A stretch of DNA of 64,000 nucleotides, from the NCBI GenBank assembly GCA_905612415.1, contig CAJQRW010000003.1:4845-68844 (forward strand), in the 5' to 3' direction. Source of the stretch: an uncultured Pelagibacteraceae bacterium. GTDB lineage: Bacteria; Pseudomonadota; Alphaproteobacteria; Pelagibacterales; Pelagibacteraceae. The notes beneath the pieces were generated by a model. It was not told where the DNA came from and made no database searches. It worked only from the letters and a program-made list of their open reading frames with translations. This document shows, piece by piece, positions 47,687 to 63,536 of this stretch (its first letter is position 1; each line of letters opens with the position of its first letter). Both the position numbers and the translations under genes were made by a program.

Positions 47687-47700
47687 GATATTTTGCTTGC

Positions 47701-49137
47701 ATGATAGATAGAAAACTTTTTTATATTAATGGCAAATGGGCTTCTCCAAAAAGTTCTAAAGAAATTAAAATAATAGATCCTGCAACAGAAAAAGAATGTG
47801 CAGTCATATCTTTGGGAGGTAAAGACGATGTTAATGATGCAGTTATTGCAGCAAAAAATGCATTTGAATCGTGGTCATTTACAACGAAGAGCCAAAGAGT
47901 AGAATTATTAGAAAAACTTTATGTTGTTTATAAAAAAAGATGGGCTGATGTAGCTGAAGCTATTACTTTGGAAATGGGTGCTCCAAAGGATTTTTCATCT
48001 CAACTTCAAGCAGGTGCTGGAGCAAGTCATATAAAATCATTTATTAAATATTTAAAAGAATTTAATTTTGAAAAAGTGCTTGGGGATCATGCTAAAAATC
48101 AAAAGATTCTTTATGAACCCAAAGGAGTTTGTGCGCTTATTACTCCTTGGAACTGGCCAATGAACCAAACTTGTCTTAAAGTAATTCCAGCACTCGCTGC
48201 CGGATGCACAATGGTTTTAAAGCCATCTGAATTAGCACCTTTATCATCAATGATACTTGCTGAAATGATTGATGAAGTAAAATTTCCAGCGGGTGTATTT
48301 AATTTAGTTAACGGCGATGGTGCTACAACTGGTGATACTTTAACAAGTCACCCAGATGTAAATATGATTTCATTTACTGGCTCGACTAGAGCAGGAGCTT
48401 TAATTTCTCAAAATGCAGCAAGAGATTTTAAAAGAATAAGTTTAGAACTAGGTGGAAAAGGAGCTAATATAATTTTTAAAGATGCAGATCCTGAAGCTGT
48501 TGAAAGAGGGGCCTTAAGATGTTTTAGAAACTCCGGACAATCATGTAATGCCCCAACAAGAATGTTGGTTGAAAAATCAATGTATAATGAAGCTGTTGAA
48601 AGAGTAAAGAATTATGCCAATAAAACAAAAGTTGATTTACCAGAAAAAGAAGGTGATCATATAGGTCCAGTAATCTCTGAGACTCAATATAATAAAATTC
48701 AAACCTTAATTCAAAAAGGAATAGACGAAGGAGCAAAATTAGTTGCGGGAGGAGTTGGAAAACCAGAAGGTTTAGAAAAAGGTTATTTTGTTAAACCAAC
48801 AGCTTTTGCTGATGTTAATAATCAAATGGAAATAGCTAGAACAGAAATATTTGGACCAGTCTTATCAATTATTCCTTTTGAAACAGAGGAAGAAGCAATT
48901 AAAATTGCAAATGACACTCCTTACGGTTTGACAAACTATATTCAAACTCAAGACCAGAAAAAAGCAAATAGAGTTGCAAGAAAATTGAGGTCAGGAATGG
49001 TTGATGTTAATGGTGCAGGTATAGCAGTCGATGCTCCATTTGGAGGGTACAAACATTCTGGGATTGGCCGAGAAGCTGGAGCTATTGGTATAGAAGAATT
49101 TTTAGAAGTCAAAACAGTTGGTGGCTGGAACGACTAA
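47701..49137 (+). CDS. NAD(P)-dependent aldehyde dehydrogenase
   Basis: 478 aa with the catalytic Glu in LELGGKG, the catalytic Cys in RNSGQSCNAPTR, and the PFGGYKHSGIGRE tail. Confidence 0.92.
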   Translation: MIDRKLFYINGKWASPKSSKEIKIIDPATEKECAVISLGGKDDVNDAVIAAKNAFESWSFTTKSQRVELLEKLYVVYKKRWADVAEAITLEMGAPKDFSSQLQAGAGASHIKSFIKYLKEFNFEKVLGDHAKNQKILYEPKGVCALITPWNWPMNQTCLKVIPALAAGCTMVLKPSELAPLSSMILAEMIDEVKFPAGVFNLVNGDGATTGDTLTSHPDVNMISFTGSTRAGALISQNAARDFKRISLELGGKGANIIFKDADPEAVERGALRCFRNSGQSCNAPTRMLVEKSMYNEAVERVKNYANKTKVDLPEKEGDHIGPVISETQYNKIQTLIQKGIDEGAKLVAGGVGKPEGLEKGYFVKPTAFADVNNQMEIARTEIFGPVLSIIPFETEEEAIKIANDTPYGLTNYIQTQDQKKANRVARKLRSGMVDVNGAGIAVDAPFGGYKHSGIGREAGAIGIEEFLEVKTVGGWND

Positions 49138-49487: not shown

Positions 49488-50714
49488 TCATATTTTGATT
49501 TTCTTTATTCTACTCTTTACACCATACTCTTCTTTTTCATTAAAGTCTTTACTATTTAACTTAGAAAGTTCTTCAATTCTGAGACCCTTAGTATCTATAG
49601 TAGGTGAACCACTTTTTTTCATTCCTTGGTGTCTTGCATACACTGCTTTCTTTTTATTTACCTGATGAGGTTGAAAATCATTAATGTGATCGATGTTCAA
49701 TTTATCCCCAACATGTATGTAGCCAGCTTTAGTTGCTTGATTTATTAAATCCAAACCTTTTTTTGTTCTAGTGATTACAGCATTAAAACCTTCATCTTCA
49801 CCTTTGGGTGAACCACCACTCCAAGTATCTAAAGCAGCTATGTCTGCACTTTCTCCAATTGCATCAGGACAGATTTTACATCTAAAAAGAACTCGCCAAG
49901 TAGACTCTTCACCCCAAAAATCATTATAAGCTTGTTGGTGCTCGCGATCATCTTTTGTTTTAATATACATTTTTCCAGGATTTCCATAACCTCTATACCT
50001 AAATGTAGATAATTCATTTTCCTTTACTTTAAAACTTTCAATAAAATCTTGCGATTTTGTAAACTCTGGAATTCCCCCGCATACTAAAGTTAGTAAATAT
50101 TTACAAAGATTATTAACTCTAGAATCTATTTTAGATAATTGTCTGATAGCACTAATATCACAAGGTTTACCAACGAAAGCAAAAGGTTCGTTTAAATCAA
50201 GAGCTTTATGAAAAGCGTCTAATGATGAAGCTGGACCGTATCTTGAACCACTTTCACAATTAACTATTTCTTCCTTAGAGTAACTAAATTTTGGAATGCT
50301 GCGCATAGGTTTTTTTGGATCTGCAACAGTATGTAGAATAAATTTGATTTTTTTAGTTTCAAGCAAGTAAATAGACAAACCATTTAACAGACCACCTGTT
50401 GAGCTCTGAAATCTAATTTTATCATCAGTAGACCAGGTATAATTTAAAGATAAATAGTAACCCCAAATTTGATCATGCTTAGACTCTTCATGAACATCTG
50501 CTTTAGGTAAACCTTCCACTATTGTACCGGGACAAATACTTTTGATTTTTTCAAAAACATCAGGGCTAATTTTATTAATTTCTTTTGGTTCAAGCCTGCC
50601 CTTGGGAGACATCATTACTTCAATTTTATCCTTACCAGCAATACTTTGACAAACACCGCAACCAATACAAAGACCATTATTTACAATGTCACTTAATTTA
50701 TTTATTTGTGTCAT
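49488..50714 (-). CDS. FrhB/FdhB-family flavo-iron-sulfur protein (coenzyme F420 hydrogenase/dehydrogenase beta subunit-like)
   Basis: 408 aa with CIGCGVCQS plus CPG (Fe-S), SSTGGLLNGL, FVGKPCDISAIRQL and CKICPDAIGESADIAALDTW, all typical of the family. Confidence 0.8.
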   Translation of the reverse strand: MTQINKLSDIVNNGLCIGCGVCQSIAGKDKIEVMMSPKGRLEPKEINKISPDVFEKIKSICPGTIVEGLPKADVHEESKHDQIWGYYLSLNYTWSTDDKIRFQSSTGGLLNGLSIYLLETKKIKFILHTVADPKKPMRSIPKFSYSKEEIVNCESGSRYGPASSLDAFHKALDLNEPFAFVGKPCDISAIRQLSKIDSRVNNLCKYLLTLVCGGIPEFTKSQDFIESFKVKENELSTFRYRGYGNPGKMYIKTKDDREHQQAYNDFWGEESTWRVLFRCKICPDAIGESADIAALDTWSGGSPKGEDEGFNAVITRTKKGLDLINQATKAGYIHVGDKLNIDHINDFQPHQVNKKKAVYARHQGMKKSGSPTIDTKGLRIEELSKLNSKDFNEKEEYGVKSRIKKIKI

Positions 50715-50716
50715 GT

Positions 50717-51118
50717 CTAGTTTTTTGGATACTTATTAAATTTTGGGAGCCTATCAGTAATTTTATAAAAATCTGATTTACTACCGATAAATATATTTCT
50801 CATGGTCTTAAGCTTAGTAGGTTTATCAAACATACCGGCGGCTATTGAAATGTTATCGGTATTTTTAAACTTAAAAAAAATACTGGCTCCACATTTGTTA
50901 CAAAAACCTCTTTTTGCATTCTTTGAAGATTTAAACCATGTAAGAGTTTTTTTATTGAGATACTTAATATCTTTGTCTTTTACATTTGAATATGCTCCAT
51001 AAATTCCATGGGTTTTACGACACTGGATACAATGACAATTTGAAACATTCCTATGTCTTCCATTAGTTTTAATTTTTACCCCTTTACAAAGACAGCTTGC
51101 TGTTAAAGATTTTTTCAT
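50717..51118 (-). CDS. GFA family (glutathione-dependent formaldehyde-activating / CENP-V-like) zinc protein
   Basis: 133 aa with the Cys pattern CLC...CHCIQCRK...FCNKCGASIF. Confidence 0.82.
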   Translation of the reverse strand: MKKSLTASCLCKGVKIKTNGRHRNVSNCHCIQCRKTHGIYGAYSNVKDKDIKYLNKKTLTWFKSSKNAKRGFCNKCGASIFFKFKNTDNISIAAGMFDKPTKLKTMRNIFIGSKSDFYKITDRLPKFNKYPKN

Positions 51119-52065
51119 TATTTTCTTATTTTATTTTCGTATTTTTTTCTTAACTTTTGAAGATTAACTAAATATTCATCTCTAATGTTTGATAGCATAG
51201 CAACTGATTTACCTTTTGCTTGTTGATTGGTACCAGCAATCACTCTAGATGATAATTTTTTAGAAAGAGTGGGAGCCTTAAGTTTTGTCCATGGTAGTTT
51301 TAAAGCAGGTCCAAATTGTTCTAACATATGCTTCATTCCAGCTTTACCTCCAGCCAAATGATAAGTTAAAAAAACTCCCATCAACGACCATCTTAATCCA
51401 GGTCCATCCTCAATAGCTCTATCTAAATCTTTAGTTGATGCGTAACCTTCATTAACTATGTGTAGGGCTTCTCTCCATAGAGCTTCTTGAAGTCTATCAG
51501 CCAGATATCCTGGTAGTTCTTTTTTAACCATGATTGGATTCATTGATATTGATTTATAAAATTTATTAGCTTTATTTAGGAATTTTTTTTTAGTTTTTTT
51601 ACCGGGGACAATTTCTACTCCTGGACACATATAAACAGGATTAAAGGGGTGTCCAATCATAGTTCGCGCTGGATTTTTACATTTAGAATATATTCTTGTT
51701 GGAAGCAGTCCAGATGAACTTGACGAAATTATAGCATTAGGTTTTGAGTACTTTCCAATAATACTCATTATTTTAGTTTTTATTTTATAATTTTCGGTTG
51801 CACATTCTTGTATAAAATCAGCTTCTTTCAAAGCTTCTTCTATTGAAGTAACGTATTTAAAGTTTTTTAAATTAATTTTTTTTTTATTGAATAATTTTTT
51901 TACATAGGGCCAAGTACGTTTTATCTCAGCAACTAGTTTTTTTTTTAATTTTAGATCTTTGTCAAATGCAACAACTTTTTTATTATGAGCTAAGCATCTA
52001 ATAATCCATCCAGCACCAATAACCCCAGTTCCTATAACAGTTACTTTATTTATACTATTCGACAT
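51118..52065 (-). CDS. 3-hydroxyacyl-CoA dehydrogenase family protein, L-carnitine dehydrogenase-like
   Basis: 315 aa. The Rossmann motif VTVIGTGVIGAGWIIRCLAH resembles the N-terminus of carnitine dehydrogenases as I remember them (GSGVIGSGWVARALAH). An HADH C-terminal domain is present. Confidence 0.8.
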   Translation of the reverse strand: MSNSINKVTVIGTGVIGAGWIIRCLAHNKKVVAFDKDLKLKKKLVAEIKRTWPYVKKLFNKKKINLKNFKYVTSIEEALKEADFIQECATENYKIKTKIMSIIGKYSKPNAIISSSSSGLLPTRIYSKCKNPARTMIGHPFNPVYMCPGVEIVPGKKTKKKFLNKANKFYKSISMNPIMVKKELPGYLADRLQEALWREALHIVNEGYASTKDLDRAIEDGPGLRWSLMGVFLTYHLAGGKAGMKHMLEQFGPALKLPWTKLKAPTLSKKLSSRVIAGTNQQAKGKSVAMLSNIRDEYLVNLQKLRKKYENKIRK

Positions 52066-52067
52066 AA

Positions 52068-52799
52068 TTATTCCTTATACGATGGATCTATAGTATCGTA
52101 TCTTCTGAGTAAGGCTGGCCATTCATTTGGTCCTGGAGCAAAAGCGTCATATGCCTTTACAGTTTTTTGCCATAAAGATTTTTCTGGTGTTTTTAATTTT
52201 AAACCTGAACCTTGGGCTTGCACCGCAACTTCACACATTCTTATGGCATAATACATATTCATGAATGATTCTCCTGCTGTTTCTCCAACAGTTAAAAGCC
52301 CATGATTTCTCATGATTAAAACTTTATTTTCTCCAAGATTCTCTGCTATTCTAAATCTTTCATCTTTATCTACTGAGACACCTTCCCAGTCATGATAACC
52401 AACTTTTCCATAAAGCATTGCTGAATCCTGAACTAAATATGGTATCCCATCTTTTAATGATGTTGCGGCCAACGCTTTGGGTGGATGTGCATGAAAAACA
52501 AATTTATTTTTTGGGTGATTTAAATGAACCGCACTATGAATTATAAAACCTGCTGTATTTACATTTTCTGGGCCTTCTAAAACTTTACCGTTTTCATCTA
52601 CTTTAATTAAATTAGAAGCTTTCACTTCTTCATAAACAAGCCCAAATTCATGCATAAAAAAAGTATGGTCTGTTCCAGGCGTTCTTGCGGTTATATGATT
52701 CCAAACTGTATCATCCCAACCCATCATATGAGTTAGTCTAAACATGGCAGCAAGATCAACTCTTACTTTCCATTCAGCTTCATTAATATTTTTTTTAAT
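52068..52799 (-). CDS. Class II aldolase/adducin-fold protein
   Basis: Motifs NHITAR, IHSAVH, HAHPP and RNHGLLTVG. The conserved N-terminal helix (EAEWKVRVDLAAMFRL) lies upstream of the only canonical start (ATG at 52745). I tentatively place the start at ATT 52797-52799 or CTG 52800-52802. Confidence 0.8.
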   Translation of the reverse strand: MKKNINEAEWKVRVDLAAMFRLTHMMGWDDTVWNHITARTPGTDHTFFMHEFGLVYEEVKASNLIKVDENGKVLEGPENVNTAGFIIHSAVHLNHPKNKFVFHAHPPKALAATSLKDGIPYLVQDSAMLYGKVGYHDWEGVSVDKDERFRIAENLGENKVLIMRNHGLLTVGETAGESFMNMYYAIRMCEVAVQAQGSGLKLKTPEKSLWQKTVKAYDAFAPGPNEWPALLRRYDTIDPSYKE

Positions 52800-53646
52800 C
52801 AGCTAAACCATCCAATCTAGGTTTATTTCTTTCAATATGAATGGGTAATACTTTTCCATATATAGCTTTTGAATGTTCAGGAGTATTTACTCTCCAAGGA
52901 TCCAGAACATAAGCTGGTATACAAAGGTATCTTGCGCGGCTTCCTTCTATTTTTGTAACACGATGAAGTGTAAAACGCCCTTTAAATATTTGTAAATCAC
53001 CTGGCTCTAACTTTAATTGACGAACTCTTTTACGGTTTCCATTAAGTACTTTTTTAACCTCTTCTAAATTTTCATTTCCTGGTTCACGTATATTAGGACA
53101 GTATTCAAATATTCCACCGTTTTCTGGCTTTTGTATCATGAAACTTAAAGTAAATTCACAACTATCGAAGTGCCAAGGAAGAATTCCTTCAGGTTTCATA
53201 ACATTGTAAGCATGACAAGCTAAAGGATCAGCCCATCTGTAGATTGGTGATACTCCAAGACAAGCAGAGACAAACTTTAAAAGTTCATCTTGTTCATAAA
53301 GAAATTTCATTTCTGAATCTTTATCAAAGACATCTGAATTTAAATAACCATTATAACGATCCATAAATATTCTTTTTGGGTGCTCTTTAGGTAGAGAAAG
53401 ATCATCTTTAGAATATAAATAAGCATTGATACTTTGTTTTGACATATAAACTTCATCGAGTTGTTTTTCTAACTCTGAGTTCATGATTTTTAAAGATTTA
53501 GGTAAAATAAAATCAGGAATAGTTGCACAACTAAACTGGTCTAAATCTTTTTTACATTTTTGGATTACTTCTTTTATTAATGAGGAGTTTAGATCCTGAA
53601 TTGGATACTTTTGTAGATCAACAATAGTCTCTAATCTATTATTCAT
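52795..53646 (-). CDS. Putative Fe(II)/2-oxoglutarate-dependent oxygenase-like protein
   Basis: 283 aa with a possible facial triad WHFD ... LHRV and a downstream Arg (GSRARY). I recognise no closer family. Confidence 0.55.
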   Translation of the reverse strand: MNNRLETIVDLQKYPIQDLNSSLIKEVIQKCKKDLDQFSCATIPDFILPKSLKIMNSELEKQLDEVYMSKQSINAYLYSKDDLSLPKEHPKRIFMDRYNGYLNSDVFDKDSEMKFLYEQDELLKFVSACLGVSPIYRWADPLACHAYNVMKPEGILPWHFDSCEFTLSFMIQKPENGGIFEYCPNIREPGNENLEEVKKVLNGNRKRVRQLKLEPGDLQIFKGRFTLHRVTKIEGSRARYLCIPAYVLDPWRVNTPEHSKAIYGKVLPIHIERNKPRLDGLAD

Positions 53647-53654
53647 AATTTTAA

Positions 53655-54890
53655 TTATACATCCTCTAGTGGATGGTGGGACATGAGCTCAAGTCCATTT
53701 TCACCAACTAAATATTGTTGTTCTAATTTTACACCTTCTTTTCCAGCAGCTTTTCCAATATAGCTTTCAATTGTAATAGTCATATTTTTTTCAAAAAATC
53801 CATCTCTTTGGCCACCGTCCGTTGGATATCTAATCATTGGCCATTCATCACAAAGACCAATTCCATGAACCATACAAGAATATCTATTTCCATAATATTC
53901 CTCTGGGAGTTTCCATGATTTTTCTGTAAATTCTTTAAAAGACATTCCGGGTTTTATTAATCTAGAATTGTGGTTTATATGCTCAACAGCCATTTGATAT
54001 AATTTCTTCTGTTCCTCATTAAACTTATGCCCTTCAACAAAAGCTCGAGATATATCTGCGCAATAACCGTAAGGACCAACCATATCAGTATCAAAAGATA
54101 CTATTTCACCACTTTGAATAATTTTATTACTACTTTCTTGCATCCAAGGATTTGTTCTTTCTCCTGATGATAAAATTCTACATTCAATCCACTCTCCACC
54201 ATGTTCAATATTAGTTTTATGTAAGATTGACCAAAGCTCATCTTCAGTCATTCCTGCTTTTAGTTCTTCTCTCATTTTATTAATACCAATTTCACAAACT
54301 TCAATTGAAGCTTTCATACATTTTAATTCTTCTGGTGATTTAATAACTCTAGCTTGTTCTAAAACTAATTTAGCATCAACTACTTCAATACCCGATTTAT
54401 TTAAAGCTGTTATCGCTGGACCATTAATAACATCAATAGCCAGTTTTTTGCTTTTAAAATAGGAGTTTGATAAATCTTTTACTTCATTGATCCATTTTTC
54501 TAATTGGACCCCAGCCTGATCACCATTACTAAAATAATCCCAAGTTATTGCTGGTCTTATTTCATCAATTAAACTTAAATGGTTAGATAATCCTTCACAA
54601 TTAAAGTATTCATAAAGAATTGCTGGCCCATTAACGGGAACAAAGCAGTAACGAGTTAAATTGTGCATGTTATAAACACTCATATTAACTGTATCTAATG
54701 CATATCTAGCATTTACCGGATCAAACAATATACAAGCTTCAAGATTATTTTTTTCTAACTCTTTTTTAACTCTATCTAATCGATAAGATCGAAGTGTAGT
54801 AAAGTTTATTTCATCTTCTTTTAATCTTTTCTTTGTTATAAAATTTGAAAGCGGTTTGGAATTTGGTGATATTTTTCTTTTAAATTTCAT
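53655..54890 (-). CDS. M24 family metallohydrolase (creatinase/prolidase N-domain plus pita-bread domain)
   Basis: 411 aa. All five pita-bread metal ligands are visible: FDTD, CADISR, VHGIG, TIESY and KLEQQ. Confidence 0.85.
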   Translation of the reverse strand: MKFKRKISPNSKPLSNFITKKRLKEDEINFTTLRSYRLDRVKKELEKNNLEACILFDPVNARYALDTVNMSVYNMHNLTRYCFVPVNGPAILYEYFNCEGLSNHLSLIDEIRPAITWDYFSNGDQAGVQLEKWINEVKDLSNSYFKSKKLAIDVINGPAITALNKSGIEVVDAKLVLEQARVIKSPEELKCMKASIEVCEIGINKMREELKAGMTEDELWSILHKTNIEHGGEWIECRILSSGERTNPWMQESSNKIIQSGEIVSFDTDMVGPYGYCADISRAFVEGHKFNEEQKKLYQMAVEHINHNSRLIKPGMSFKEFTEKSWKLPEEYYGNRYSCMVHGIGLCDEWPMIRYPTDGGQRDGFFEKNMTITIESYIGKAAGKEGVKLEQQYLVGENGLELMSHHPLEDV

Positions 54891-54891
54891 A

Positions 54892-56088
54892 TTAAACTAA
54901 ATTTGTTGCTATCCATTTATGAAAATTGTGAGTAGGGTTATCCATAACAGGTGAAAAATTACCACCATTATATGAAGGAGAATTTCTTCCTTCTTGCATT
55001 CCCTCAATGATACCAATATCTTCTACTTGTACACCATACCAAAGTTTTAAATTTTGTTTCCTTAGATTTTTATATTTTTTTGAATTTGCTGCTGCATTTC
55101 CTACATAATAAATTTCCATATGCTCAATCGTTAATTCATGACTAACTGGTTCCAGCCAATAAGCGTAATAGTGATCTTTATGAATTCCTAGCATTACATT
55201 TGGAAACAGAGCAACATACTCGGCAATATTTAATTTATCTTTAGGCCAATTAGGAAAGCATGGAAATTTAAGCTTACCTTTGAGTCTTGGATTATAAACA
55301 ATGGTACCTTGTCCAGCAAATCTATTAGGTAAACCTTCGATGTGATAATGATCGTTAATTTTAGAGTAAGAATTTAATCCTGGGTGAACCCATGGAAGGT
55401 GATAACTTTCACAATAATTTTCTATTGCAAACTTCCAATTACATTTTGCTGTTAGTTTAAAGTAACCTAAATCTTTTGAATGTTGAATTAGTTTCTGATC
55501 TTTTTTTTGCCAAAACTTAGACCAACGATCTTGTAAAGGTTTGACATATTGTTCAAAAGGTATTTCGTTGTTAGAAATATTAACCATAATCAAATCTAAC
55601 CAAACGTAAGAACGAACTTCTTTAAGTCCATTAACAGATTTGTCAAAATCTTTAGAATTATGTTTATTCATCCCACCTAAATGGGGTGTGGCTACTAGCT
55701 TTCCCTCAAGATTATAAGACCAAGAATGATAAGGACATCTTAATACATTTTTAATAGAACATTTTTTTTGTAAAATTTTATAACCTCTATGACTACATAC
55801 GTTATGGTATACTTTTATTATATTACTTTTGGTTCTTAATAAAATTAGAGGAATTCCAAGTATATCAAAAGGTTTTGCATCTCCAGGTTTAGAGATTGAA
55901 CTAGCAACTCCAACAACTATCCATTTGTCTTCAAATATTTTCTTTCTTTCAATGCTTGTATATTCCTTACTATTATAACATTCGTTAGGAAGACCGTGAG
56001 CTTTACTTATAGGTTGATTAACAACGTCTAATTTCCTTTTTTTTACAACGTCATATATATTTCTGTGACCATTAAGCTTAGAAGTCAT
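54892..56088 (-). CDS. Rieske [2Fe-2S] non-heme iron oxygenase, alpha subunit type (GbcA/CMO-like)
   Basis: 398 aa with the Rieske motif CSHRG...x17...CPYHSW and the mononuclear iron motif ENYCESYHLPWVH. Confidence 0.88.
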   Translation of the reverse strand: MTSKLNGHRNIYDVVKKRKLDVVNQPISKAHGLPNECYNSKEYTSIERKKIFEDKWIVVGVASSISKPGDAKPFDILGIPLILLRTKSNIIKVYHNVCSHRGYKILQKKCSIKNVLRCPYHSWSYNLEGKLVATPHLGGMNKHNSKDFDKSVNGLKEVRSYVWLDLIMVNISNNEIPFEQYVKPLQDRWSKFWQKKDQKLIQHSKDLGYFKLTAKCNWKFAIENYCESYHLPWVHPGLNSYSKINDHYHIEGLPNRFAGQGTIVYNPRLKGKLKFPCFPNWPKDKLNIAEYVALFPNVMLGIHKDHYYAYWLEPVSHELTIEHMEIYYVGNAAANSKKYKNLRKQNLKLWYGVQVEDIGIIEGMQEGRNSPSYNGGNFSPVMDNPTHNFHKWIATNLV

Positions 56089-56176
56089 ATTAAAAACCCT
56101 AACATTTCAGTAAAAATAGGCAATAGAATTAAGATAAAATTACTGGACATCCACCCGAGTCCGCTGATATATCCCG
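56089..56176. promoter_or_regulatory. Divergent control region between the Rieske operon and the MTHFR-like/aminomethyltransferase pair
   Basis: This is an 88-bp spacer between divergent start codons, so it must hold both promoters. It contains a locally GC-rich element, GGACATCCACCCGAGTCC (GGAC-N10-GTCC). I cannot assign any -35/-10 boxes with confidence. Confidence 0.4.
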
Positions 56177-56911
56177 ATGATTATGAATTTTTCTTTAGAG
56201 ATAGGACTTAAGACTGACCTTAGCACATTACCAAATATTAAAGATGTGTACATAACTCTTTTAAGAGGAGACCAATATAAAGATGTAGCTAACAAAGCCA
56301 AAGAACTTGTAAAGCTTGGCAAGAACCCTGTTCCACATTTCCCCGCTAGATCAATTAAAAATGAAAATGAGCTTAAAGACTACACCAATATGTGTAAAGA
56401 TTTCGGCGTGAAACAAGCTCTTGTAATAGGAGGTGGAGCACAACCTATTGGAGATTTTCACTGTTCTCTTCAACTATTTGAGACGGGATTATTCGAAGAT
56501 TTTAAGATAGGAATCGCTGGACATCCAGAGGGTTCCCCTGATATATCCGACTCTGAAATAGAAAAAGCTATGATAGATAAAAAACCATTCGCAGATTATA
56601 TAGTTACCCAGTGGCTAATGGAAACTTCTCCAATAGTAGATTTTATTTCAAAACAAAGTTTACCAGTACATGTAGGGATAGCTGGGCCAGCCAAAATTAC
56701 AAGCTTACTTAAGTTCGCTAGTATAGTGGGTGCAAAAAATTCTCTTAGCTTTTTAAAATCAAATGCTAGTAAAGCAGTTGATTTATTTAAACCAAGAAAA
56801 CCAGATGATATGATTGAGAAAATTAAGAGTGTTTCTCAAAATTTCCATATCTATACATTTGGTGGCCTTAATGAAACAAACAAATGGTTATTGGAGAACA
56901 ACTATGCCTAA
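56177..56911 (+). CDS. Short methylenetetrahydrofolate reductase-like protein
   Basis: 244 aa. It has an MTHFR-family pattern, GIAGHPEGSPD...YIVTQWLME, and an N-terminal FSLEI strand. It is shorter than canonical MetF (about 290 aa). Confidence 0.75.
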   Translation: MIMNFSLEIGLKTDLSTLPNIKDVYITLLRGDQYKDVANKAKELVKLGKNPVPHFPARSIKNENELKDYTNMCKDFGVKQALVIGGGAQPIGDFHCSLQLFETGLFEDFKIGIAGHPEGSPDISDSEIEKAMIDKKPFADYIVTQWLMETSPIVDFISKQSLPVHVGIAGPAKITSLLKFASIVGAKNSLSFLKSNASKAVDLFKPRKPDDMIEKIKSVSQNFHIYTFGGLNETNKWLLENNYA

Positions 56912-56942
56912 AAAAAAGAAAACTATGCCTAAAAAAAAGAAA
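56901..56942 (+). repeat. Perfect 21-bp tandem duplication (2 copies of ACTATGCCTAAAAAAAAGAAA)
   Basis: Copy 1 is 56901-56921 and copy 2 is 56922-56942, identical base for base. Copy 1 contains the stop codon of the MTHFR-like gene. Each copy contains an ATG in the aminomethyltransferase frame. Confidence 0.95.
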
Positions 56943-58361
56943 AAGTCTAAAAAAATTAAATCTAAAAAAATTAAAATTAAAATTAAAAAAGTAAAAAAAG
57001 CTAAATCAGTTTCTTTAAAACCTGAAAAAGTTGATTACAGCAAAGTTAGACACGAAACATCTGTAGATCAATCAGATAGACATGTGCCTTATAATTTAAG
57101 ACAAAGTGGTTCTACAAAAGTTGAACTGTTAATCTCAACAAGAGTAAGAAAATCACCTTATTGGCATCTATCAATGAAAGCAGGATGTTGGAGAGCTACA
57201 GTTTATAACCGTATCTATCACCCACGTGGTTATGTAAGACCTGAAAAAGGTGGTGCTATGGTCGAGTATGAAGCAATTAAAAAACATGTAACAATGTGGA
57301 ACGTTGCTGTTGAAAGACAAATACGTGTTAAAGGACCTGATGCTGAAAAATTTACAGATTATGTAATAACACGTGATGCTACTAAAATTTCAACAATGAG
57401 AGGACGTTATGTTATTCTTTGTAACTACAAAGGTGGAGTATTAAACGATCCTGTGTTGTTAAGAGTGGCGGAAGATGAGTTTTGGTTTAGTTTATCAGAT
57501 TCAGATATAGGTTTATATTTGCAAGGAGTTAATGCAGATAAAAAATTTAATGTTGAAATCGATGAAATTGATGCTTGTCCAGTTCAAATTCAAGGCCCTA
57601 AATCAAAAGCTTTAATGAAAGATTTAATTGGAGATCAAGTTGATTTAGATAACATGCCTTTTTATGGTTTGGCAGAAGCTAAAGTTGGAGGAAGAAGTTG
57701 TGTAATTTCACAATCTGGTTTTTCAGGTGAAGCTGGCTATGAAATTTATCTTCGTAATGCAACTTTATATGCTGAAGATATGTGGAATGCTGTACTTAAG
57801 GCAGGAAAAAAACATAAGTTAATGGTTATTGCTCCAGCACACCATAGAAGAATTCAAGCTGGAATATTATCTTGGGGTCAAGATATGGATAACGAACATA
57901 ATCCTTTTCAGTGTAATTTAGGTTATCAAGTTTCTTTATCTGGAAAAGGTGAATGGAACAAATCAGCTGACTACATTGGGAAAGAGGCTTTAGAGAAAAT
58001 GAAAAGCCAAATTTCTAATGGAGATAAACCTTACAAACTCCAACTTGTTGGTATGGAATTAGGTGGAAAACCAATTGAAGAATATGCTCCAGATTTCTGG
58101 TTAGTATCAGGCGCTGACGGAGGTAAACCAGTTGGTTACATTACTTCTCCTTGGTATCACCCAGAAAAAGGTAAAAATATTGCAATGGGATACGTTCCGT
58201 ATGAAGGACATACGAACGCTAAAGGTTTCCCAATTGCTAATTTTGGAAAGAAATATAAAGTTCATTTGCCAGCAAAATATTCTAGTAAACCAGTTGATGC
58301 CGTAGTGGTGCCAGTTCCGTTTACAGAATCGTTTAATGCAAATACTCGAGAGGTAAAATAA
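56904..58361 (+). CDS. GcvT-family aminomethyltransferase (DmdA/LigM-like THF-dependent demethylase) with a poly-lysine N-terminal tail
   Basis: The core is KHVTMWNVAVERQIRVKGPDAEKF...GGVLNDPVLLRVAEDEFWFSLSDSD...ISQSGFSGEAGYEIY. I placed the start at the ATG at 56904, which overlaps the upstream stop by 8 nt. The alternative is the ATG at 56925. The track ORF start at 56814 lies inside the upstream gene. Confidence 0.88.
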   Translation: MPKKKKTMPKKKKKSKKIKSKKIKIKIKKVKKAKSVSLKPEKVDYSKVRHETSVDQSDRHVPYNLRQSGSTKVELLISTRVRKSPYWHLSMKAGCWRATVYNRIYHPRGYVRPEKGGAMVEYEAIKKHVTMWNVAVERQIRVKGPDAEKFTDYVITRDATKISTMRGRYVILCNYKGGVLNDPVLLRVAEDEFWFSLSDSDIGLYLQGVNADKKFNVEIDEIDACPVQIQGPKSKALMKDLIGDQVDLDNMPFYGLAEAKVGGRSCVISQSGFSGEAGYEIYLRNATLYAEDMWNAVLKAGKKHKLMVIAPAHHRRIQAGILSWGQDMDNEHNPFQCNLGYQVSLSGKGEWNKSADYIGKEALEKMKSQISNGDKPYKLQLVGMELGGKPIEEYAPDFWLVSGADGGKPVGYITSPWYHPEKGKNIAMGYVPYEGHTNAKGFPIANFGKKYKVHLPAKYSSKPVDAVVVPVPFTESFNANTREVK

Positions 58362-62787: not shown

Positions 62788-63536
62788 TGAAAATATTAGT
62801 AGCCGTTAAAAGAGTTATTGATTACAACGTACAAATCAGAATAAAAGAAGATGGTAGTGGCATTAATACAGATAATGTTAAAATGTCAACAAATCCGCCA
62901 GATGATAATGCTATTGAAGAAGCAGTAAAATTAAAAGAATCTGGTAAAGCAAAAGAAATTGTTGCTGTTACAATAGGGGAAGAAAAAGCTCAGGAAACAG
63001 TTCGAAAAGCTTTAGCGGTTGGAGCTGATAGAGGTATACATATTAAATCTGAGAATTATATAGAACCATTGGGTATAGCAAAAATTTTAAAAAAAATAGT
63101 AGAAAAAGAAAAACCTGATTTAGTTTTTTTAGGAAAACAAGCTATCGATGATGATTGTAATCAAACTGGGCAAATGCTAGCTGCTTTATTAGGTTGGCCA
63201 CAAGGAACTTTTGCCTCTAAGATTGAACATAAAAATAAAGTTATTGAGGTAACAAGAGAGGTAGATGAAGGTTTGGAGACTATAGAAATTAATTTACCAG
63301 CGATAATAACATGTGATTTAAGACTAAATGAACCACGCTTTGCTTCATTGCCAAATATTATGAAAGCAAAAAAAAAACCAATTGAACAGCTAAATGTAAA
63401 AGATCTTAGTGTTGATATTTCAAATCGAATCCAACAAATAAAAGTAGAAGAGCCTCCAAAAAGAAAAGCGGGAATAAAAGTAGCTAGCGTCTCTGAACTA
63501 GTTAGCAAACTTAAAAATGAGGCTAAGGTAATATAA
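62787..63536 (+). CDS. etfB: Electron transfer flavoprotein beta subunit
   Basis: 249 aa starting [15 protein letters not shown]. The start overlaps the upstream stop (TAATG). Confidence 0.94.

What the first reader, a model, noticed from the sequence alone, without database searches (positions are those of the whole stretch)
49488..58361. Divergent nine-gene cluster mixing oxidative and THF-linked demethylation with hydroxy-acid chemistry: a candidate uncharacterised pathway for a methylated osmolyte
Seen in the sequence:
- Seven minus-strand genes are packed together, from a 5-nt overlap to an 8-nt gap (taking the ATT start for the aldolase-fold gene). They are Rieske oxygenase (54892-56088), M24 metallohydrolase (53655-54890), HxD..H oxygenase-like (52795-53646), class II aldolase fold (52068-52799), carnitine-dehydrogenase-like HADH (51118-52065), GFA family (50717-51118) and FrhB-like flavo-FeS (49488-50714).
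- Across an 88-bp spacer they face an MTHFR-like gene that is translationally overlapped with a DmdA/LigM-like GcvT-family aminomethyltransferase.

Established knowledge:
- Rieske monooxygenases of the GbcA, CntA and Stc2 type attack quaternary amines and release formaldehyde or trimethylamine.
- GFA proteins act on formaldehyde-thiol adducts.
- GcvT-family demethylases pass methyl groups to THF.
- Carnitine dehydrogenases belong to the HADH family.

Inference: the set fits stepwise breakdown of an N-, S- or O-methylated hydroxy or oxo acid. Carnitine or gamma-butyrobetaine-type compounds are one guess. The product would feed the DMGDH/ETF genes 2 kb away. The combination matches no pathway I can name: an aldolase fold instead of a BKACE, an FrhB-like protein instead of a reductase, two demethylation chemistries side by side, and no regulator or transporter.
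Basis: partly seen in the sequence, partly recalled or inferred. Interest (0 to 1): 0.8.

Follow-up and report, generated by a model that had tools for sequence, protein, structure and literature searches.

The report
SAR11 osmolyte-breakdown island, mosaic gene run
The nine genes are real, but they are a strain-specific patchwork inside the variable betaine and methyl-compound breakdown island of the ocean bacterium SAR11, and four of them belong to a widespread enzyme set that nobody has characterised and that probably degrades a carnitine-like solute.

Summary
All nine ORFs, their family assignments and their spacings are confirmed. The tight packing is ordinary for this 96%-coding SAR11 window.

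The run is not a fixed nine-gene pathway:
- None of 81 related Pelagibacteraceae genomes carries all seven minus-strand genes, and none of about 47 SAR11-like metagenome contigs shows all seven either, though most of those are short. One genome has six.
- The genes lie in a flexible island between a conserved MTHFR-like/GcvT-like pair and DMGDH/ETF.
- In most strains that island also holds ProXW, BHMT and a sarcosine-DH-like gene.

The run is a mosaic of three parts:
1. A quaternary-amine-type Rieske oxygenase that belongs with the THF pair.
2. A core conserved far beyond SAR11, in a Pseudomonas plasmid and in mid- and high-GC marine contigs. It comprises a HalD/BesD-type Fe/2OG hydroxylase, a DddP-like M24 enzyme, a PRK07044 aldolase-fold protein, an NAD-dependent hydroxy-acid dehydrogenase and an FrhB-like protein. 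Betaine transporters and GbdR/CdhR-type regulators usually sit nearby.
3. A GFA accessory gene.

In this window the hydroxylase paralog that normally precedes the aldolase gene (HalD2) is missing, and the aldolase ATG is replaced by ATT.

The best reading is hydroxylation, then dehydrogenation, then C-C cleavage of a γ-butyrobetaine/carnitine-like solute without BKACE. The substrate is inferred, not shown.

The parts
49488..50714 (-). FrhB/FdhB-like flavin and Fe-S protein (408 aa), the last gene of the run
   Evidence: Pfam FrhB_FdhB_N and _C. The best solved relative is 8riu_B at 62 bits. It is 45% identical to the FrhB-like gene of the HalD-like/M24/FrhB operon on Pseudomonas sp. MPC6 plasmid pMPC6-328K. 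It recurs after the aldolase or HADH gene in SAR11 contigs and in mid-GC marine operons.
50717..51118 (-). GFA-family Zn protein (133 aa), an accessory gene
   Evidence: PF04828 at 71 bits. It is far below the S-(hydroxymethyl)glutathione synthase equivalog, 20.5 against 234. This subfamily occurs in only one of 81 related genomes (L066). Two other GFA subfamilies (f28, f74) sit next to the HADH or HalD genes in 11 further loci.
51118..52065 (-). Carnitine-dehydrogenase-like 3-hydroxyacid dehydrogenase (315 aa)
   Evidence: NF005471 L-carnitine dehydrogenase at 351 bits (cutoff 414), against 217 bits for generic HADH. The best solved relative is lambda-crystallin, a free-acid 3-hydroxyacid dehydrogenase. 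It follows HalD directly in 19 of 78 SAR11 loci. It is never found together with the alternative NAD_binding_2 dehydrogenase in 18 cassettes.
52068..52799 (-). Class II aldolase-fold protein of the PRK07044 subfamily (243 aa from ATT 52799; the first ATG is at 52745)
   Evidence: PRK07044 at 271 bits, above 207. It is 57-75% identical to copies in Pseudomonas, Sulfitobacter and unidentified marine bacteria. The HxH and NHG motifs are kept, and relatives include the decarboxylase NovR and TqaM. The ATG is present in L005 and L007 and replaced by ATT in the window and L004.
52795..53646 (-). HalD/BesD-family Fe(II)/2-oxoglutarate hydroxylase, paralog 'HalD1' (283 aa)
   Evidence: PF23169 at 47 bits. 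H159-x-D161...H228 and R239 are invariant in 19 relatives. The AF2 model has pLDDT 94.8, and its best PDB folds are HalD, HalB, BesD and Hydrox at TM 0.6-0.75. Relatives occur in more than 576 species genomes, and the best 80 are all Pelagibacteraceae. It is the sister of HalD2, the paralog that normally precedes the aldolase gene.
53655..54890 (-). DddP-like M24 metalloenzyme (411 aa)
   Evidence: NF043017 DddP at 358 bits, below 600. It scores 284 bits against DddP structures 4rzy and 4b28. All six DddP metal ligands and both proposed catalytic residues (Y366, D377) are conserved. It is 38-49% identical to the M24 genes next to HalD-like genes in Pseudomonas MPC6, Halomonas and L086. It lies within four genes upstream of HalD in 61 of 73 SAR11 loci.
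54892..56088 (-). Rieske non-haem iron oxygenase alpha subunit of the quaternary-amine type (398 aa)
   Evidence: Pfam Rieske plus Ring_hydroxyl_A. The best solved relative is carnitine monooxygenase CntA at 114 bits, followed by Stc2-type entries. GbcA scores 120 bits, below 670. Orthologs at 44-47% identity in Pseudomonas MPC6 and Cupriavidus plasmids lie in an operon of Rieske, ALDH, two FAD oxidoreductases and EutQ. It is present in 63 of 81 SAR11 loci. In every locus that shows both genes it lies on the far side of the MTHFR-like gene, divergently oriented and often with ProX/ProW between them.
56089..56176 (.). 88-bp divergent spacer between the Rieske and MTHFR-like genes
   Evidence: Read directly. 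No Rfam match. The promoter scan was uninformative in this AT-rich DNA. In most relatives ProX/ProW genes are inserted here.
56177..56911 (+). MTHFR-like protein (244 aa; 242 aa in relatives)
   Evidence: Only weak TIGR00677 at 24 bits. It is 26% identical, E 5e-28, to an annotated haloarchaeal MTHFR that lies next to a GcvT-like gene. It is paired with the GcvT-like gene in all 11 loci that reach that far.
56904..58361 (+). GcvT-family, DmdA-like methyltransferase with a variable poly-lysine N-terminal tail (485 aa from ATG 56904)
   Evidence: GCV_T plus GCV_T_C. DmdA PRK12486 scores 242 bits, below 410. There is an 8-nt overlap with the MTHFR-like stop. It is 54-58% identical to haloarchaeal plasmid genes that lie beside MTHFR, DHFR and DMGDH-like genes.
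60355..64000 (+). DMGDH, ETF-beta and the start of ETF-alpha: the conserved right-hand border of the island (context)
   Evidence: Pfam DAO, FAO_M and GCV_T. The order DUF4864-DMGDH-ETFb-ETFa-ETF-QO is found in about 57-61 of the related loci.
46718..49137 (+). Arginase-family ureohydrolase plus aldehyde dehydrogenase, convergent on the run: the left border in this subclade (context)
   Evidence: Pfam Arginase at 324 bits and Aldedh at 518 bits. The pair is kept in L004, and the ALDH alone in L007-L009 and L120. The ALDH is only about 35% identical to the ALDH of the Pseudomonas Rieske operon, so it is not its ortholog.

Best explanation
The locus is one strain's configuration of the flexible N-osmolyte and methyl-group catabolic island of SAR11. 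It is not a dedicated nine-gene pathway. Three layers are juxtaposed.

**1. Demethylation border (shown by conservation).** This comprises the MTHFR-like gene, the DmdA-like GcvT-family gene, the divergently placed Rieske oxygenase, and DMGDH/ETF 2 kb away. Inferred function: the Rieske enzyme attacks a quaternary amine oxidatively. The GcvT-like enzyme passes a methyl group to THF. The MTHFR-like enzyme oxidises 5-methyl-THF to methylene-THF.

**2. A conserved but uncharacterised core (co-occurrence shown across Alpha- and Gammaproteobacteria and unidentified marine bacteria).** It comprises a HalD/BesD-type Fe/2OG hydroxylase, a DddP-like M24 metalloenzyme, a PRK07044 aldolase-fold enzyme, an NAD-dependent 3-hydroxyacid dehydrogenase (here carnitine-DH-like) and an FrhB-like flavo-FeS protein. 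The proposed chemistry is inferred from the order and identity of the families:
- The hydroxylase installs a hydroxyl on an unactivated CH2 of a betaine-type onium carboxylate, such as γ-butyrobetaine or a close analogue. This gives a carnitine-like 3-hydroxy acid.
- The dehydrogenase oxidises that product to the 3-oxo acid.
- The aldolase-fold enzyme decarboxylates or cleaves the 3-oxo acid. It takes the place that BKACE holds in the known carnitine pathway.
- The M24 enzyme (hydrolase, or DddP-type lyase) and the FrhB-like reductase process the remaining onium fragment.

**3. A GFA-family protein**, an accessory that may deal with an aldehyde-thiol adduct.

In this window the core is a reduced derivative. 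The hydroxylase paralog HalD2, which is the ortholog of the non-SAR11 copies, has been lost. The aldolase gene therefore abuts paralog HalD1 and starts with ATT.
For: **Island and variability**
- The HalD-like gene has relatives in more than 576 species genomes, and the best 80 are all Pelagibacteraceae.
- The consensus layout is MTHFR-like / ProW / ProX | Rieske, BHMT-like, SarDH-like, MTase, M24, kinase-like, nucleotidyltransferase-like, HalD1, ECH, CoA-binding, BT1, flavodoxin-like, DUF4864, DMGDH, ETF, ETF-QO.
- No locus has all seven window genes. L007 has six.

**Core conserved outside SAR11**
- Pseudomonas sp. MPC6 plasmid: an operon of HalD-like (52%), M24 (49%) and FrhB-like (45%), with the aldolase (61%), a GBT-type ABC transporter, a GlxA-family regulator, ETF-QO, FolD and PurU nearby.
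- L086: M24 (38%) divergent from HalD-like (48%), with the aldolase (67%) and two dehydrogenases.
- Eight mid-GC marine contigs: MR_MLE and LysR divergent from Aldo (68-75%), HalD (44-47%), NAD_binding_2 dehydrogenase, [FrhB], M24 and 2-hydroxyacid dehydrogenase.
- 12 of 24 non-SAR11 metagenome loci have the aldolase next to the hydroxylase.

**Hydroxylate-then-oxidise logic**
- HalD is followed directly by the HADH in 19 of 78 loci.
- The HADH and the NAD_binding_2 dehydrogenase are mutually exclusive in 18 cassettes.
- The hydroxylase has HxD, not HxG/A.
- Relatives of the aldolase-fold protein include decarboxylases.

**Carnitine-type hints**
- The best NCBIfam hit of the HADH is L-carnitine dehydrogenase.
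- Its homolog at 77-80% identity lies in the CDH-BKACE-aldolase-thioesterase island.
- A carnitine acyltransferase gene follows HalD-like genes in 3 of 3 actinobacterial contexts.
- CntA is the best solved relative of the Rieske enzyme.
- Carnitine-to-trimethylaminoacetone-to-betaine activity is reported, with its enzymes still unknown.

**Reduced derivative**
- HalD2 precedes the aldolase in about 21 of 25 SAR11-like loci and is closer to the non-SAR11 copies.
- The ATG has become ATT.
Against: - No substrate is shown for any of the nine proteins. Every specific family equivalog cutoff is missed: DddP 358 against 600, CDH 351 against 414, GbcA 120 against 670, DmdA 242 against 410.
- The carnitine acyltransferase link concerns a distant hydroxylase clade, only 34-38% identical to HalD1 and HalD2.
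- Characterised HalD/BesD members act on lysine and ornithine, not betaines.
- Non-SAR11 clusters regularly include an MR_MLE enzyme. The Pseudomonas plasmid also has AcnX and D-hydroxyproline-dehydrogenase-like genes. These point equally well to proline- or hydroxyproline-betaine-type substrates.
- The M24 enzyme keeps every DddP catalytic residue, which would suit a sulfonium substrate.
- No role can be assigned with any confidence to the M24, FrhB-like or GFA proteins.
- Loss of HalD2 and of the ATG may mean the cassette is decaying in this strain.
- Gene proximity in a 96%-coding genome is weak evidence of co-function.
Confidence: 0.5

Rival explanations
1. All nine genes form one co-evolved, co-transcribed pathway that degrades a single methylated osmolyte step by step. 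The Rieske enzyme, with the FrhB-like protein as its reductase, carries out oxidative demethylation. GFA captures the formaldehyde.
For: The seven genes share one strand with gaps of -5 to +8 nt, and no terminator-like site lies inside the run. The closest relatives L005-L009 keep Rieske-M24-HalD contiguous, and L004 keeps Rieske directly followed by HalD.
Against: - No relative holds all seven genes, and modules drop out even at 90-96% protein identity: L004 lacks M24 and GFA, L008 lacks Aldo, HADH and FrhB, and L009 lacks Aldo and FrhB.
- In most strains the Rieske gene is separated from M24 by BHMT-like, SarDH-like and MTase genes.
- The FrhB-like gene accompanies HalD, M24 and Aldo in operons with no adjacent Rieske gene.
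- The packing equals the genome background.
Confidence: 0.1
2. The module works on sulfonium rather than ammonium solutes, such as DMSP, DMSOP or gonyol-type compounds. The M24 enzyme is a DddP-type lyase that releases DMS or DMSO. The GcvT-like enzyme is a DmdA-type S-demethylase that makes 5-methyl-THF, which the MTHFR-like enzyme recycles. The dehydrogenase and aldolase-fold enzymes handle a hydroxy-acid backbone.
For: - All six DddP metal ligands plus Y366 and D377 are conserved.
- The best NCBIfam hit of the GcvT-family protein is DmdA.
- In some SAR11 loci an SBP56 (methanethiol-oxidase-like) gene with a ferredoxin gene, an MsrA gene, and YeeE/YedE genes are inserted in the same island.
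- An ECH gene follows HalD1 in 49 of 78 loci, as would suit acryloyl-CoA hydration.
- A DddL-type lyase gene lies 4 kb from the Halomonas pair.
Against: - The DddP and DmdA equivalog cutoffs are missed by wide margins.
- Neighbours outside SAR11 are betaine/carnitine/choline-type transporters, GbdR/CdhR-type regulators and an MttB-family methyltransferase.
- The Halomonas M24 copy has Gly at the D377 position.
- A hydroxylase has no evident role in DMSP cleavage.
Confidence: 0.17
3. The conserved core degrades a proline-, hydroxyproline- or other amino-acid-derived betaine, or a basic amino acid. The HalD-like enzyme hydroxylates the amino acid skeleton, as BesD-family hydroxylases do with lysine. 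The M24 enzyme acts as a prolidase- or creatinase-like C-N hydrolase.
For: - The fold and family are those of lysine and ornithine hydroxylases and halogenases.
- MR_MLE genes (the family of hydroxyproline-betaine epimerase, from my own knowledge) recur next to the module.
- The Pseudomonas plasmid adds AcnX plus DUF126 and a set of FAD oxidoreductase, 2Fe-2S protein, FAD oxidoreductase and RidA.
- The M24 family includes Xaa-Pro peptidases and creatinase.
- An arginase-family gene and an ALDH gene flank the window's run.
Against: - SAR11 loci contain no MR_MLE gene.
- The dehydrogenase chosen in SAR11 is carnitine-DH-like.
- Carnitine acyltransferase genes adjoin distant family members.
- The M24 enzyme keeps the DddP-specific Asp297-equivalent ligand and catalytic Asp.
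Confidence: 0.15
4. There is no functional link. The run is a chance juxtaposition of unrelated accessory genes in a hypervariable region, and it is partly decaying in this strain.
For: Gene content here differs between strains at the species level. HalD2 has been lost and the aldolase start codon is non-canonical. Tight packing is the genomic background.
Against: The same four or five families recur together, in different orders, in Pseudomonas, in unidentified mid- and high-GC marine bacteria, and in other SAR11 lineages such as L082 and L083. Chance does not produce that. All ORFs are intact, and the ATT variant is shared by two independent genomes.
Confidence: 0.08

Closest known systems
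Carnitine catabolism through carnitine dehydrogenase plus BKACE and thioesterase (Pseudomonas aeruginosa cdh genes; the annotated 'glycine betaine island' of Arctic SAR11, PMC12421898)
   Same: There is a carnitine-DH-like free-acid 3-hydroxyacid dehydrogenase, 77-80% identical to the HADH of the SDR-HADH-BKACE-aldolase-thioesterase layout in L082 and L083. That layout matches the published island. A class II aldolase-fold gene accompanies the dehydrogenase. The setting is next to betaine transport and C1 genes.
   Different: The 64-kb window has no BKACE (DUF849), no thioesterase, no TauD-type BBOX and no ABC transporter. The window's aldolase-fold protein is only about 31% identical to the island's. 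The hydroxylase belongs to a different 2OG-oxygenase family.
γ-Butyrobetaine hydroxylase (BBOX, TauD/TfdA-type)
   Same: The proposed role is the same: Fe/2OG hydroxylation that creates the hydroxyl the dehydrogenase then oxidises. Adjacency to the CDH-like gene supports this.
   Different: The fold family is unrelated, HalD/BesD PF23169 rather than TauD. L082 and L083 carry both a BBOX-like gene (TIGR02409, 320 bits) and a HalD-like gene, so the two are not simply redundant. The activity has not been tested.
DddP, the M24-family DMSP lyase
   Same: The two share about 284 bits over the full length with solved DddP structures. All six metal ligands and the proposed catalytic Tyr and Asp are kept, and the GLCDEWP motif is identical.
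   Different: The score is 358 bits against an equivalog cutoff of 600. This M24 is consistently paired with a 2OG hydroxylase and betaine-type transporters, which DddP is not known to be.
BesD/HalB/HalD radical halogenases and the BesD-like lysine hydroxylase
   Same: They share a Pfam family and a fold, with TM 0.6-0.75. 2OG-binding Arg and Fe-binding His residues are present.
   Different: Sequence identity is 13-17%. The motif is HxD (a carboxylate ligand, so a hydroxylase) rather than HxG/A. The context is catabolic and betaine-linked rather than natural-product biosynthesis.
Quaternary-amine Rieske oxygenases CntA, GbcA/BmoA and Stc2
   Same: It has a Rieske domain and a catalytic domain. 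CntA and the Stc2-type entries are the closest solved relatives. It lies beside betaine catabolic genes.
   Different: It falls far below the GbcA equivalog (120 against 670 bits). No reductase partner gene is adjacent. Its own orthologs at 44-47% identity form an uncharacterised operon with ALDH, two FAD oxidoreductases and EutQ.
DmdA or LigM with MetF: a THF-dependent demethylase coupled to methylene-THF reductase
   Same: A GcvT-family enzyme is translationally coupled to an MTHFR-like protein. MetF2 induced on N-osmolytes in Ruegeria is a parallel case.
   Different: DmdA scores 242 bits against a cutoff of 410, and LigM and DesA score below 45 bits. The protein has an extra roughly 100-residue N-terminal region with a variable poly-Lys tail. 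The MTHFR-like partner is too divergent for Pfam.

Membership tests
DddP DMSP lyase (NCBIfam NF043017) | Binuclear-metal M24 fold with ligands D295, D297, D307, H371, E406 and E421 | tested here: met
   All six ligands are aligned and identical against 4rzy. The residue list comes from PMC4108388.
DddP DMSP lyase (NCBIfam NF043017) | Proposed catalytic residues Tyr366 and Asp377 | tested here: met
   Both are conserved, and the GLCDEWP motif is identical.
DddP DMSP lyase (NCBIfam NF043017) | Score at or above the curated equivalog cutoff (600 bits) | tested here: not met
   358 bits.
DddP DMSP lyase (NCBIfam NF043017) | Releases DMS and acrylate from DMSP | not testable with these tools
   This needs an enzyme assay.
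L-carnitine dehydrogenase (NF005471) | 3HCDH_N plus 3HCDH domains, and best similarity to CDH rather than to acyl-CoA dehydrogenases | tested here: met
   CDH scores 351 bits and the next non-CDH model 217 bits. Lambda-crystallin, a free-acid 3-hydroxyacid dehydrogenase, is the best solved relative.
L-carnitine dehydrogenase (NF005471) | Score at or above the curated cutoff (414 bits) | tested here: not met
   351 bits.
L-carnitine dehydrogenase (NF005471) | Genomic partnership with BKACE and a thioesterase | tested here: not met
   Both are absent from the window. They are present next to the homolog at 77-80% identity in L082 and L083.
HalD/BesD Fe/2OG family (PF23169) | Pfam gathering score and the fold | tested here: met
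   47 bits, above 26. Foldseek top hits are HalD, HalB and BesD at TM 0.6-0.75 on a model with pLDDT 94.8.
HalD/BesD Fe/2OG family (PF23169) | Halogenase signature HxG/A in place of the carboxylate ligand | tested here: not met
   H159-F-D161 is invariant in 19 relatives, which marks a hydroxylase.
HalD/BesD Fe/2OG family (PF23169) | Binds a free basic alpha-amino acid (carboxylate-binding Arg such as HalB R83, plus amine-binding residues) | tested here: inconclusive
   An Arg (R97) is conserved among close relatives but not across the family. No residue-level structural superposition is available.
GbcA / CntA quaternary-amine Rieske oxygenases | Rieske 2Fe-2S domain plus a mononuclear-iron catalytic domain | tested here: met
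   PF00355 at 63 bits and PF00848 at 136 bits.
GbcA / CntA quaternary-amine Rieske oxygenases | Equivalog-level similarity (GbcA cutoff 670 bits) | tested here: not met
   GbcA scores 120 bits over the N-terminal half only. CntA scores 114 bits.
GbcA / CntA quaternary-amine Rieske oxygenases | Adjacent reductase gene (GbcB or CntB type) | tested here: not met
   There is none in the window, and none among the island's common gene families in SAR11 loci. The association of the FrhB-like gene is with HalD, M24 and Aldo.
DmdA DMSP demethylase (PRK12486) | GCV_T fold and a score at or above 410 bits | tested here: not met
   The fold is present (PF01571 at 139 bits), but the score is 242 bits.
MTHFR (MetF) | Detectable homology to methylene-THF reductase | tested here: inconclusive
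   There is no Pfam hit, and TIGR00677 scores 24 bits against a cutoff of 310. Pairwise identity to an annotated haloarchaeal MTHFR is 26%, E 5e-28, and a precomputed weak PF02219 hit exists for a SAR11 ortholog.
[quoted passage not shown] | GFA domain, and equivalog score at or above 234 bits | tested here: not met
   The domain is present at 71 bits, but the equivalog scores only 20.5 bits.
Class II aldolase/adducin, PRK07044 subfamily | Subfamily cutoff (207 bits) and metal-binding His motifs | tested here: met
   271 bits. The HAH and NHG motifs align with 3ocr, 4xxf and TqaM. The sugar-phosphate aldolase and epimerase equivalogs all score below 45 bits.
Arctic SAR11 'glycine betaine' genomic island (PMC12421898) | Ordered set of ABC transporter, TauD-type BBOX, SDR, CDH, BKACE, class II aldolase, thioesterase, CHDH and ALDH | tested here: not met
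   Only a CDH homolog and a different aldolase subfamily (31% identity) are present in the window.
Single operon | Same strand, short gaps, no internal terminator | tested here: inconclusive
   These conditions are met, but such spacing is the genome-wide norm. Co-transcription cannot be tested here.

The most novel reading that the evidence does not exclude
The set of HalD-type hydroxylase, NAD-dependent 3-hydroxyacid dehydrogenase and PRK07044 aldolase-fold enzyme, with the DddP-like M24 and the FrhB-like protein, would be the missing BKACE-independent route for γ-butyrobetaine/carnitine-type solutes. Its first step would use a second, non-TauD kind of γ-butyrobetaine hydroxylase. The route would pass through 3-dehydrocarnitine and trimethylaminoacetone, an activity reported decades ago in Pseudomonas sp. 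AK1 extracts whose enzymes were never identified (as cited in PMC12482172).

HalD-type genes occur in more than 576 species genomes (the best 80 all Pelagibacteraceae), and the core recurs in other marine bacteria. The route would therefore be a major, unrecognised oceanic sink for quaternary amines and a source of TMA or glycine betaine.
Probability: 0.2. Interest if true: 0.8.

Novelty: new variant of a known kind. Interest (0 to 1): 0.58.

Why it matters
SAR11 is the most abundant heterotroph in the surface ocean, and methylated osmolytes are a large part of the labile carbon, nitrogen and sulfur it consumes. Only the betaine-to-glycine demethylation steps are assigned in SAR11, and those by prediction.

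**What this locus adds**
- The island around those genes is a strain-variable toolbox.
- At least four of its families travel together across distant bacteria, next to betaine transporters. They are the HalD-type hydroxylase, the DddP-like M24, the PRK07044 aldolase-fold protein and the FrhB-like protein. None has a characterised member in this setting.

**Consequences**
- Assigning the substrate would add a pathway to marine N- or S-osmolyte budgets.
- It could identify the orphan enzymes of the trimethylaminoacetone route.
- It would show whether DddP-like genes of this type are miscounted as DMSP lyases in metagenome surveys.
- Pseudomonas sp. MPC6 carries the same modules on plasmid pMPC6-328K and offers a practical genetic test bed.

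Tried and rejected
- **Exact-sequence look-up** of the window's M24 protein: not on record.
- **Locus search with the 19-sequence alignment A1:** too diverse to give search patterns. Repeated with six sequences.
- **Rfam E-value scan of 40000-64000:** no riboswitch or other RNA.
- **Promoter and terminator scan:** fewer promoter-like sites than in shuffles, and one plus-strand terminator-like site inside the HADH gene. Uninformative.
- **Literature searches.** Searches for SAR11 with Rieske, DddP, aldolase, carnitine or butyrobetaine, and for BesD-type hydroxylases in catabolism, found no paper on this module. The only related paper found is the annotation-level Arctic island.
- **Window = Arctic island:** rejected. 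BKACE, BBOX, the thioesterase and the transporter are absent, and the aldolase belongs to a different subfamily.
- **FrhB-like protein as the Rieske reductase:** rejected on its distribution.
- **The flanking ALDH as ortholog of the ALDH in the Pseudomonas and Cupriavidus Rieske operon:** rejected at about 35% identity.
- **The haloarchaeal Rieske next to the GcvT-like gene as an ortholog:** rejected at 23% identity.
- **The window's HalD as a HalD1/HalD2 recombinant:** rejected. It is 92% identical over the full length to the L007 HalD1.
- **Tight gene spacing as evidence of an operon:** rejected as genome background.

Full report
**1. The observation**

The window has about 30% G+C, and the closest proteins are from 'Candidatus Pelagibacter'.

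- The minus-strand junctions are +2, -1, +2, -5, +8 and +1 nt.
- The Rieske and MTHFR-like start codons are 88 bp apart.
- The GcvT-family gene most plausibly starts at ATG 56904, overlapping the MTHFR-like stop by 8 nt.
- The family calls are right: FrhB_N/C, GFA, carnitine-DH-like HADH (351 bits, cutoff 414), class II aldolase PRK07044 (271 bits, above 207), HalD-family 2OG oxygenase (47 bits, above 26), DddP-like M24 (358 bits, below 600), Rieske oxygenase, and DmdA-like GcvT (242 bits, below 410).
- The MTHFR-like protein has no Pfam hit but aligns with a haloarchaeal MTHFR at E 5e-28.

Tight spacing is not evidence here. The window is about 96% coding, the median same-strand gap is 2.5 nt, and 32 of 48 gaps are 10 nt or less.

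**2. The individual proteins**

*Hydroxylase.* It has an invariant H159-x-D161...H228 triad and R239. The AlphaFold model is confident (pLDDT 94.8). Its nearest solved folds are HalD, HalB, BesD, HalA and the BesD-like lysine hydroxylase, at TM 0.6-0.75 and 13-17% identity. It is therefore a hydroxylase of that family, not a halogenase.

*M24 protein.* It aligns over its full length with the DddP structures (284 bits). It keeps all six metal ligands and both proposed catalytic residues named in PMC4108388.

*Rieske protein.* CntA is the closest solved relative, followed by Stc2-type enzymes.

*HADH.* Lambda-crystallin, a free-acid 3-hydroxyacid dehydrogenase, is the closest solved relative.

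*Aldolase-fold protein.* It keeps the HxH and NHG motifs. Its relatives include adducin, a protein of unknown function (3ocr), the decarboxylase NovR and TqaM.

*FrhB-like protein.* It matches 8riu_B and the F420-enzyme beta subunits only weakly.

**3. Where the locus sits**

A scan of one genome per species found relatives of the hydroxylase in more than 576 genomes. The best 80 are all Pelagibacteraceae. I called and clustered ORFs in these loci and annotated the families.

The consensus layout is: MTHFR-like / ProW / ProX, divergent from Rieske, BHMT-like, sarcosine-DH-like, SAM methyltransferase, M24, APS-kinase-like, nucleotidyltransferase-like, HalD, enoyl-CoA hydratase, CoA-binding protein, BT1 transporter, flavodoxin-like, DUF4864, DMGDH, ETF-beta, ETF-alpha and ETF-QO.

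Between the two conserved borders the content varies from strain to strain. Inserts include an autotransporter, SBP56 with a ferredoxin, MsrA, YeeE/YedE, a TauD gene with an HD-domain gene, and a CDH-BKACE-aldolase-thioesterase block.

That last block matches the 'glycine betaine island' described at annotation level for Arctic SAR11 (PMC12421898). The window is not that island. BKACE, the TauD-type BBOX, the thioesterase and the transporter are absent from all 64 kb, and the window's aldolase-fold protein is only about 31% identical to the island's.

**4. The nine genes are not a unit**

Among 81 related genomes none has all seven minus-strand genes.
- Only L007 has six.
- L004, at 94-97% protein identity, lacks M24 and GFA.
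- L008 goes from HalD straight to the ALDH gene.
- L009 lacks the aldolase and FrhB-like genes.

The immediate neighbours of HalD are usually the nucleotidyltransferase-like gene upstream (70 of 80 loci) and the ECH gene downstream (49 of 78). The HADH follows it in 19 loci.

Metagenome contigs add a second hydroxylase paralog, HalD2, at 50-54% identity. It heads a cassette of HalD2, [NAD_binding_2 dehydrogenase], aldolase-fold, [HADH] and FrhB-like.
- The two dehydrogenases never occur together in 18 cassettes.
- About 21 of 25 SAR11-like loci with the aldolase gene keep HalD2 in front of it.
- The window, L004, L005 and L150 do not.

In the window and L004 the aldolase ATG seen in L005 and L007 is replaced by ATT, which overlaps the HalD stop. 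The encoded N-terminus is otherwise the same. The window therefore carries a reduced derivative of the cassette.

**5. A core conserved outside SAR11**

- *Plasmid pMPC6-328K of an Antarctic Pseudomonas.* It has LysR divergent from HalD-like (52%), M24 (49%) and FrhB-like (45%) as one operon. The aldolase-fold gene (61%), an SDR, MR_MLE, a 2-hydroxyacid dehydrogenase, a glycine-betaine-type ABC transporter, a GlxA-family regulator, ETF-QO, FolD and PurU lie within 30 kb. A Rieske ortholog (47%) lies in a separate operon with an ALDH, two FAD oxidoreductases, EutQ, a second M24 (47%) and BCCT.
- *A 4.4-Mb metagenomic chromosome (L086).* M24 (38%) lies divergent from HalD-like (48%), with the aldolase-fold gene (67%) and two dehydrogenases.
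- *Halomonas nitroreducens and L095.* Both have HalD-like, M24 and OpuAC. One also has BCCT and the other a GbdR/CdhR-type regulator.
- *A Sulfitobacter plasmid.* It has the aldolase-fold gene (57%) between two dehydrogenases, under a GlxA-family regulator and next to a betaine-type ABC transporter.
- *Eight marine contigs of 38-48% G+C.* They share MR_MLE and LysR divergent from Aldo (68-75%), HalD (44-47%), NAD_binding_2 dehydrogenase, [FrhB-like], M24 and 2-hydroxyacid dehydrogenase. Three high-G+C contigs share HalD, dehydrogenase, Aldo and MR_MLE.

These non-SAR11 hydroxylases are closer to HalD2 (50-58%) than to the window's HalD1 (44-52%).

A more distant clade (34-39%) includes actinobacterial copies. 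Each is followed by a carnitine/choline acyltransferase gene in 3 of 3 contexts examined. It also includes a roseobacter copy beside an MttB-family methyltransferase and two DMGDH-like genes.

The GcvT-like protein is 54-58% identical to haloarchaeal plasmid genes. In the one haloarchaeal context examined, Haloarcula marismortui pHMA411, it sits with MTHFR, DHFR and DMGDH-like genes.

**6. How it most likely works**

*Shown.* The run is a mosaic. The MTHFR-like/GcvT-like pair, with the Rieske gene, forms the island's conserved border. The hydroxylase, M24, aldolase-fold, dehydrogenase and FrhB-like genes form a recurrent set that keeps company with betaine-type transporters and regulators.

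*Inferred.* The order hydroxylase, then NAD-dependent 3-hydroxyacid dehydrogenase, then aldolase-fold enzyme suggests three steps: C-H hydroxylation, oxidation to a 3-oxo acid, and decarboxylation or C-C cleavage. This is the logic of γ-butyrobetaine to carnitine to 3-dehydrocarnitine, with the aldolase-fold enzyme in place of BKACE.

A carnitine-to-trimethylaminoacetone-to-betaine activity with unidentified enzymes is on record, as cited in PMC12482172, and would fit. The roles of the M24 enzyme (hydrolase or DddP-type lyase), the FrhB-like protein (reductase) and GFA remain guesses. Methyl groups and formaldehyde would enter THF through the GcvT-like, MTHFR-like and DMGDH/ETF proteins. MetF2 induction on N-osmolytes in Ruegeria is a parallel case.

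**7. Rivals**

- A sulfonium reading is supported by the DddP-type active site, the DmdA-like partner, and the sulfur genes inserted in some strains.
- A proline/hydroxyproline-betaine or basic-amino-acid reading is supported by the MR_MLE and AcnX neighbours and by the known substrates of the BesD family.
- Neither can be excluded.
- The single nine-gene pathway and pure chance are both unlikely, for the reasons in sections 4 and 5.

**8. Novelty**

The held literature describes the Arctic island only by annotation. It assigns SAR11 betaine demethylation to Bhmt (PMC12478193; PMC3160333). I found nothing on the HalD-type/M24/aldolase-fold/FrhB-like set. It is best filed as a new variant of a known kind, an osmolyte catabolic cluster whose core enzymes are uncharacterised.

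Interest is moderate to high because of the abundance of SAR11 and the breadth of the core. It is tempered because the window's own copy is a reduced, strain-specific arrangement and no substrate is shown.

Noticed in passing
window 56904-57010 (+): The GcvT-family protein begins with a lysine-rich, A-tract-encoded tail: MPKKKKTMPKKKKKSKKIKSKKIKIKIKKVKKAKS, with an internal MPKKKK duplication. In the closest relatives the tail varies from about 10 to about 35 residues. In other SAR11 lineages, which start MSNEFDY, it is absent.
   Followed up: partly
window 52795-52805 (-): The aldolase-fold gene lacks an ATG at the conserved N-terminus. An ATT overlaps the TAA stop of the hydroxylase gene (GATTAA). 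L005 and L007 have ATG at the same codon, and L004 shares the ATT. The junction is where relatives carry a second hydroxylase paralog (HalD2), so it looks like a deletion scar, possibly with termination-reinitiation coupling.
   Followed up: yes
window 46718-49137 (+), and 44176-46674: An arginase-family ureohydrolase and an aldehyde dehydrogenase converge on the run, which suggests a guanidino-compound step. Further left lie an alpha/beta hydrolase, a ChrR-like cupin, an Asp/Glu racemase-family gene and a LysE exporter. Only L004 keeps the arginase-ALDH pair.
   Followed up: partly
window 49134-49340 (-) and 49390-49491 (-): A 68-aa ORF with two hydrophobic stretches and a 33-aa ORF lie downstream of the FrhB-like gene on the same strand, in the 350-bp gap before the convergent ALDH gene. 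They may be the tail of the transcription unit.
   Followed up: no
L010-L083 (for example L012 2711, L022 2723): At the same position SAR11 strains carry one of two Rieske variants, either 57-60% or 73-94% identical to the window's protein. These could be alleles with different substrates.
   Followed up: no
L001, L012 and others, between M24 and HalD1: In 59-64 of 73 loci a 136-aa APS-kinase-like P-loop protein and a 124-aa HxGH nucleotidyltransferase-like protein sit between M24 and HalD1. An enoyl-CoA hydratase (PRK08139) and a CoA-binding protein follow HalD1. The function is unknown, and all four genes are absent from the window.
   Followed up: partly
L026, L042, L044, L061 (after the ECH gene): An SBP56 gene (methanethiol-oxidase-like, 681 bits) with a 2Fe-2S ferredoxin gene is inserted in the island in some strains. 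Others carry MsrA or YeeE/YedE genes there. These are sulfur-related accessories in the same variable region.
   Followed up: no
L018, L045, L082 (families f48 and f51; L083 has f48 only): A TauD-family dioxygenase next to an HD-domain protein resembles the TmpA/TmpB or PhnY/PhnZ oxidative C-P cleavage pairs. That resemblance is from my own knowledge. The pair lies beside the CDH-BKACE block.
   Followed up: no
L088 and L091 (Pseudomonas sp. MPC6 plasmid pMPC6-328K, 172-245 kb): A conjugative Antarctic Pseudomonas plasmid gathers many of the SAR11 island families. These include two HalD-like genes, two M24 genes, an FrhB-like gene, the PRK07044 aldolase, a Rieske gene, M19 dipeptidase with a 570-aa protein and DUF3726, ProVWX, four BCCT transporters, ETF-QO, FolD and PurU. 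It would be a culturable test bed.
   Followed up: partly
L092 (Haloarcula marismortui pHMA411), hits H51-H62: The SAR11 GcvT-like protein is 54-58% identical to genes on haloarchaeal megaplasmids. In the one context examined, Haloarcula marismortui pHMA411, it lies next to MTHFR, DHFR and DMGDH-like genes. That is unusually high conservation across domains for an uncharacterised demethylase.
   Followed up: partly
window 56177-56185 (+): The MTHFR-like ORF is two codons longer than in all relatives (244 against 242 aa; it starts MIMNFSL). The real start may be the ATG at 56183.
   Followed up: no
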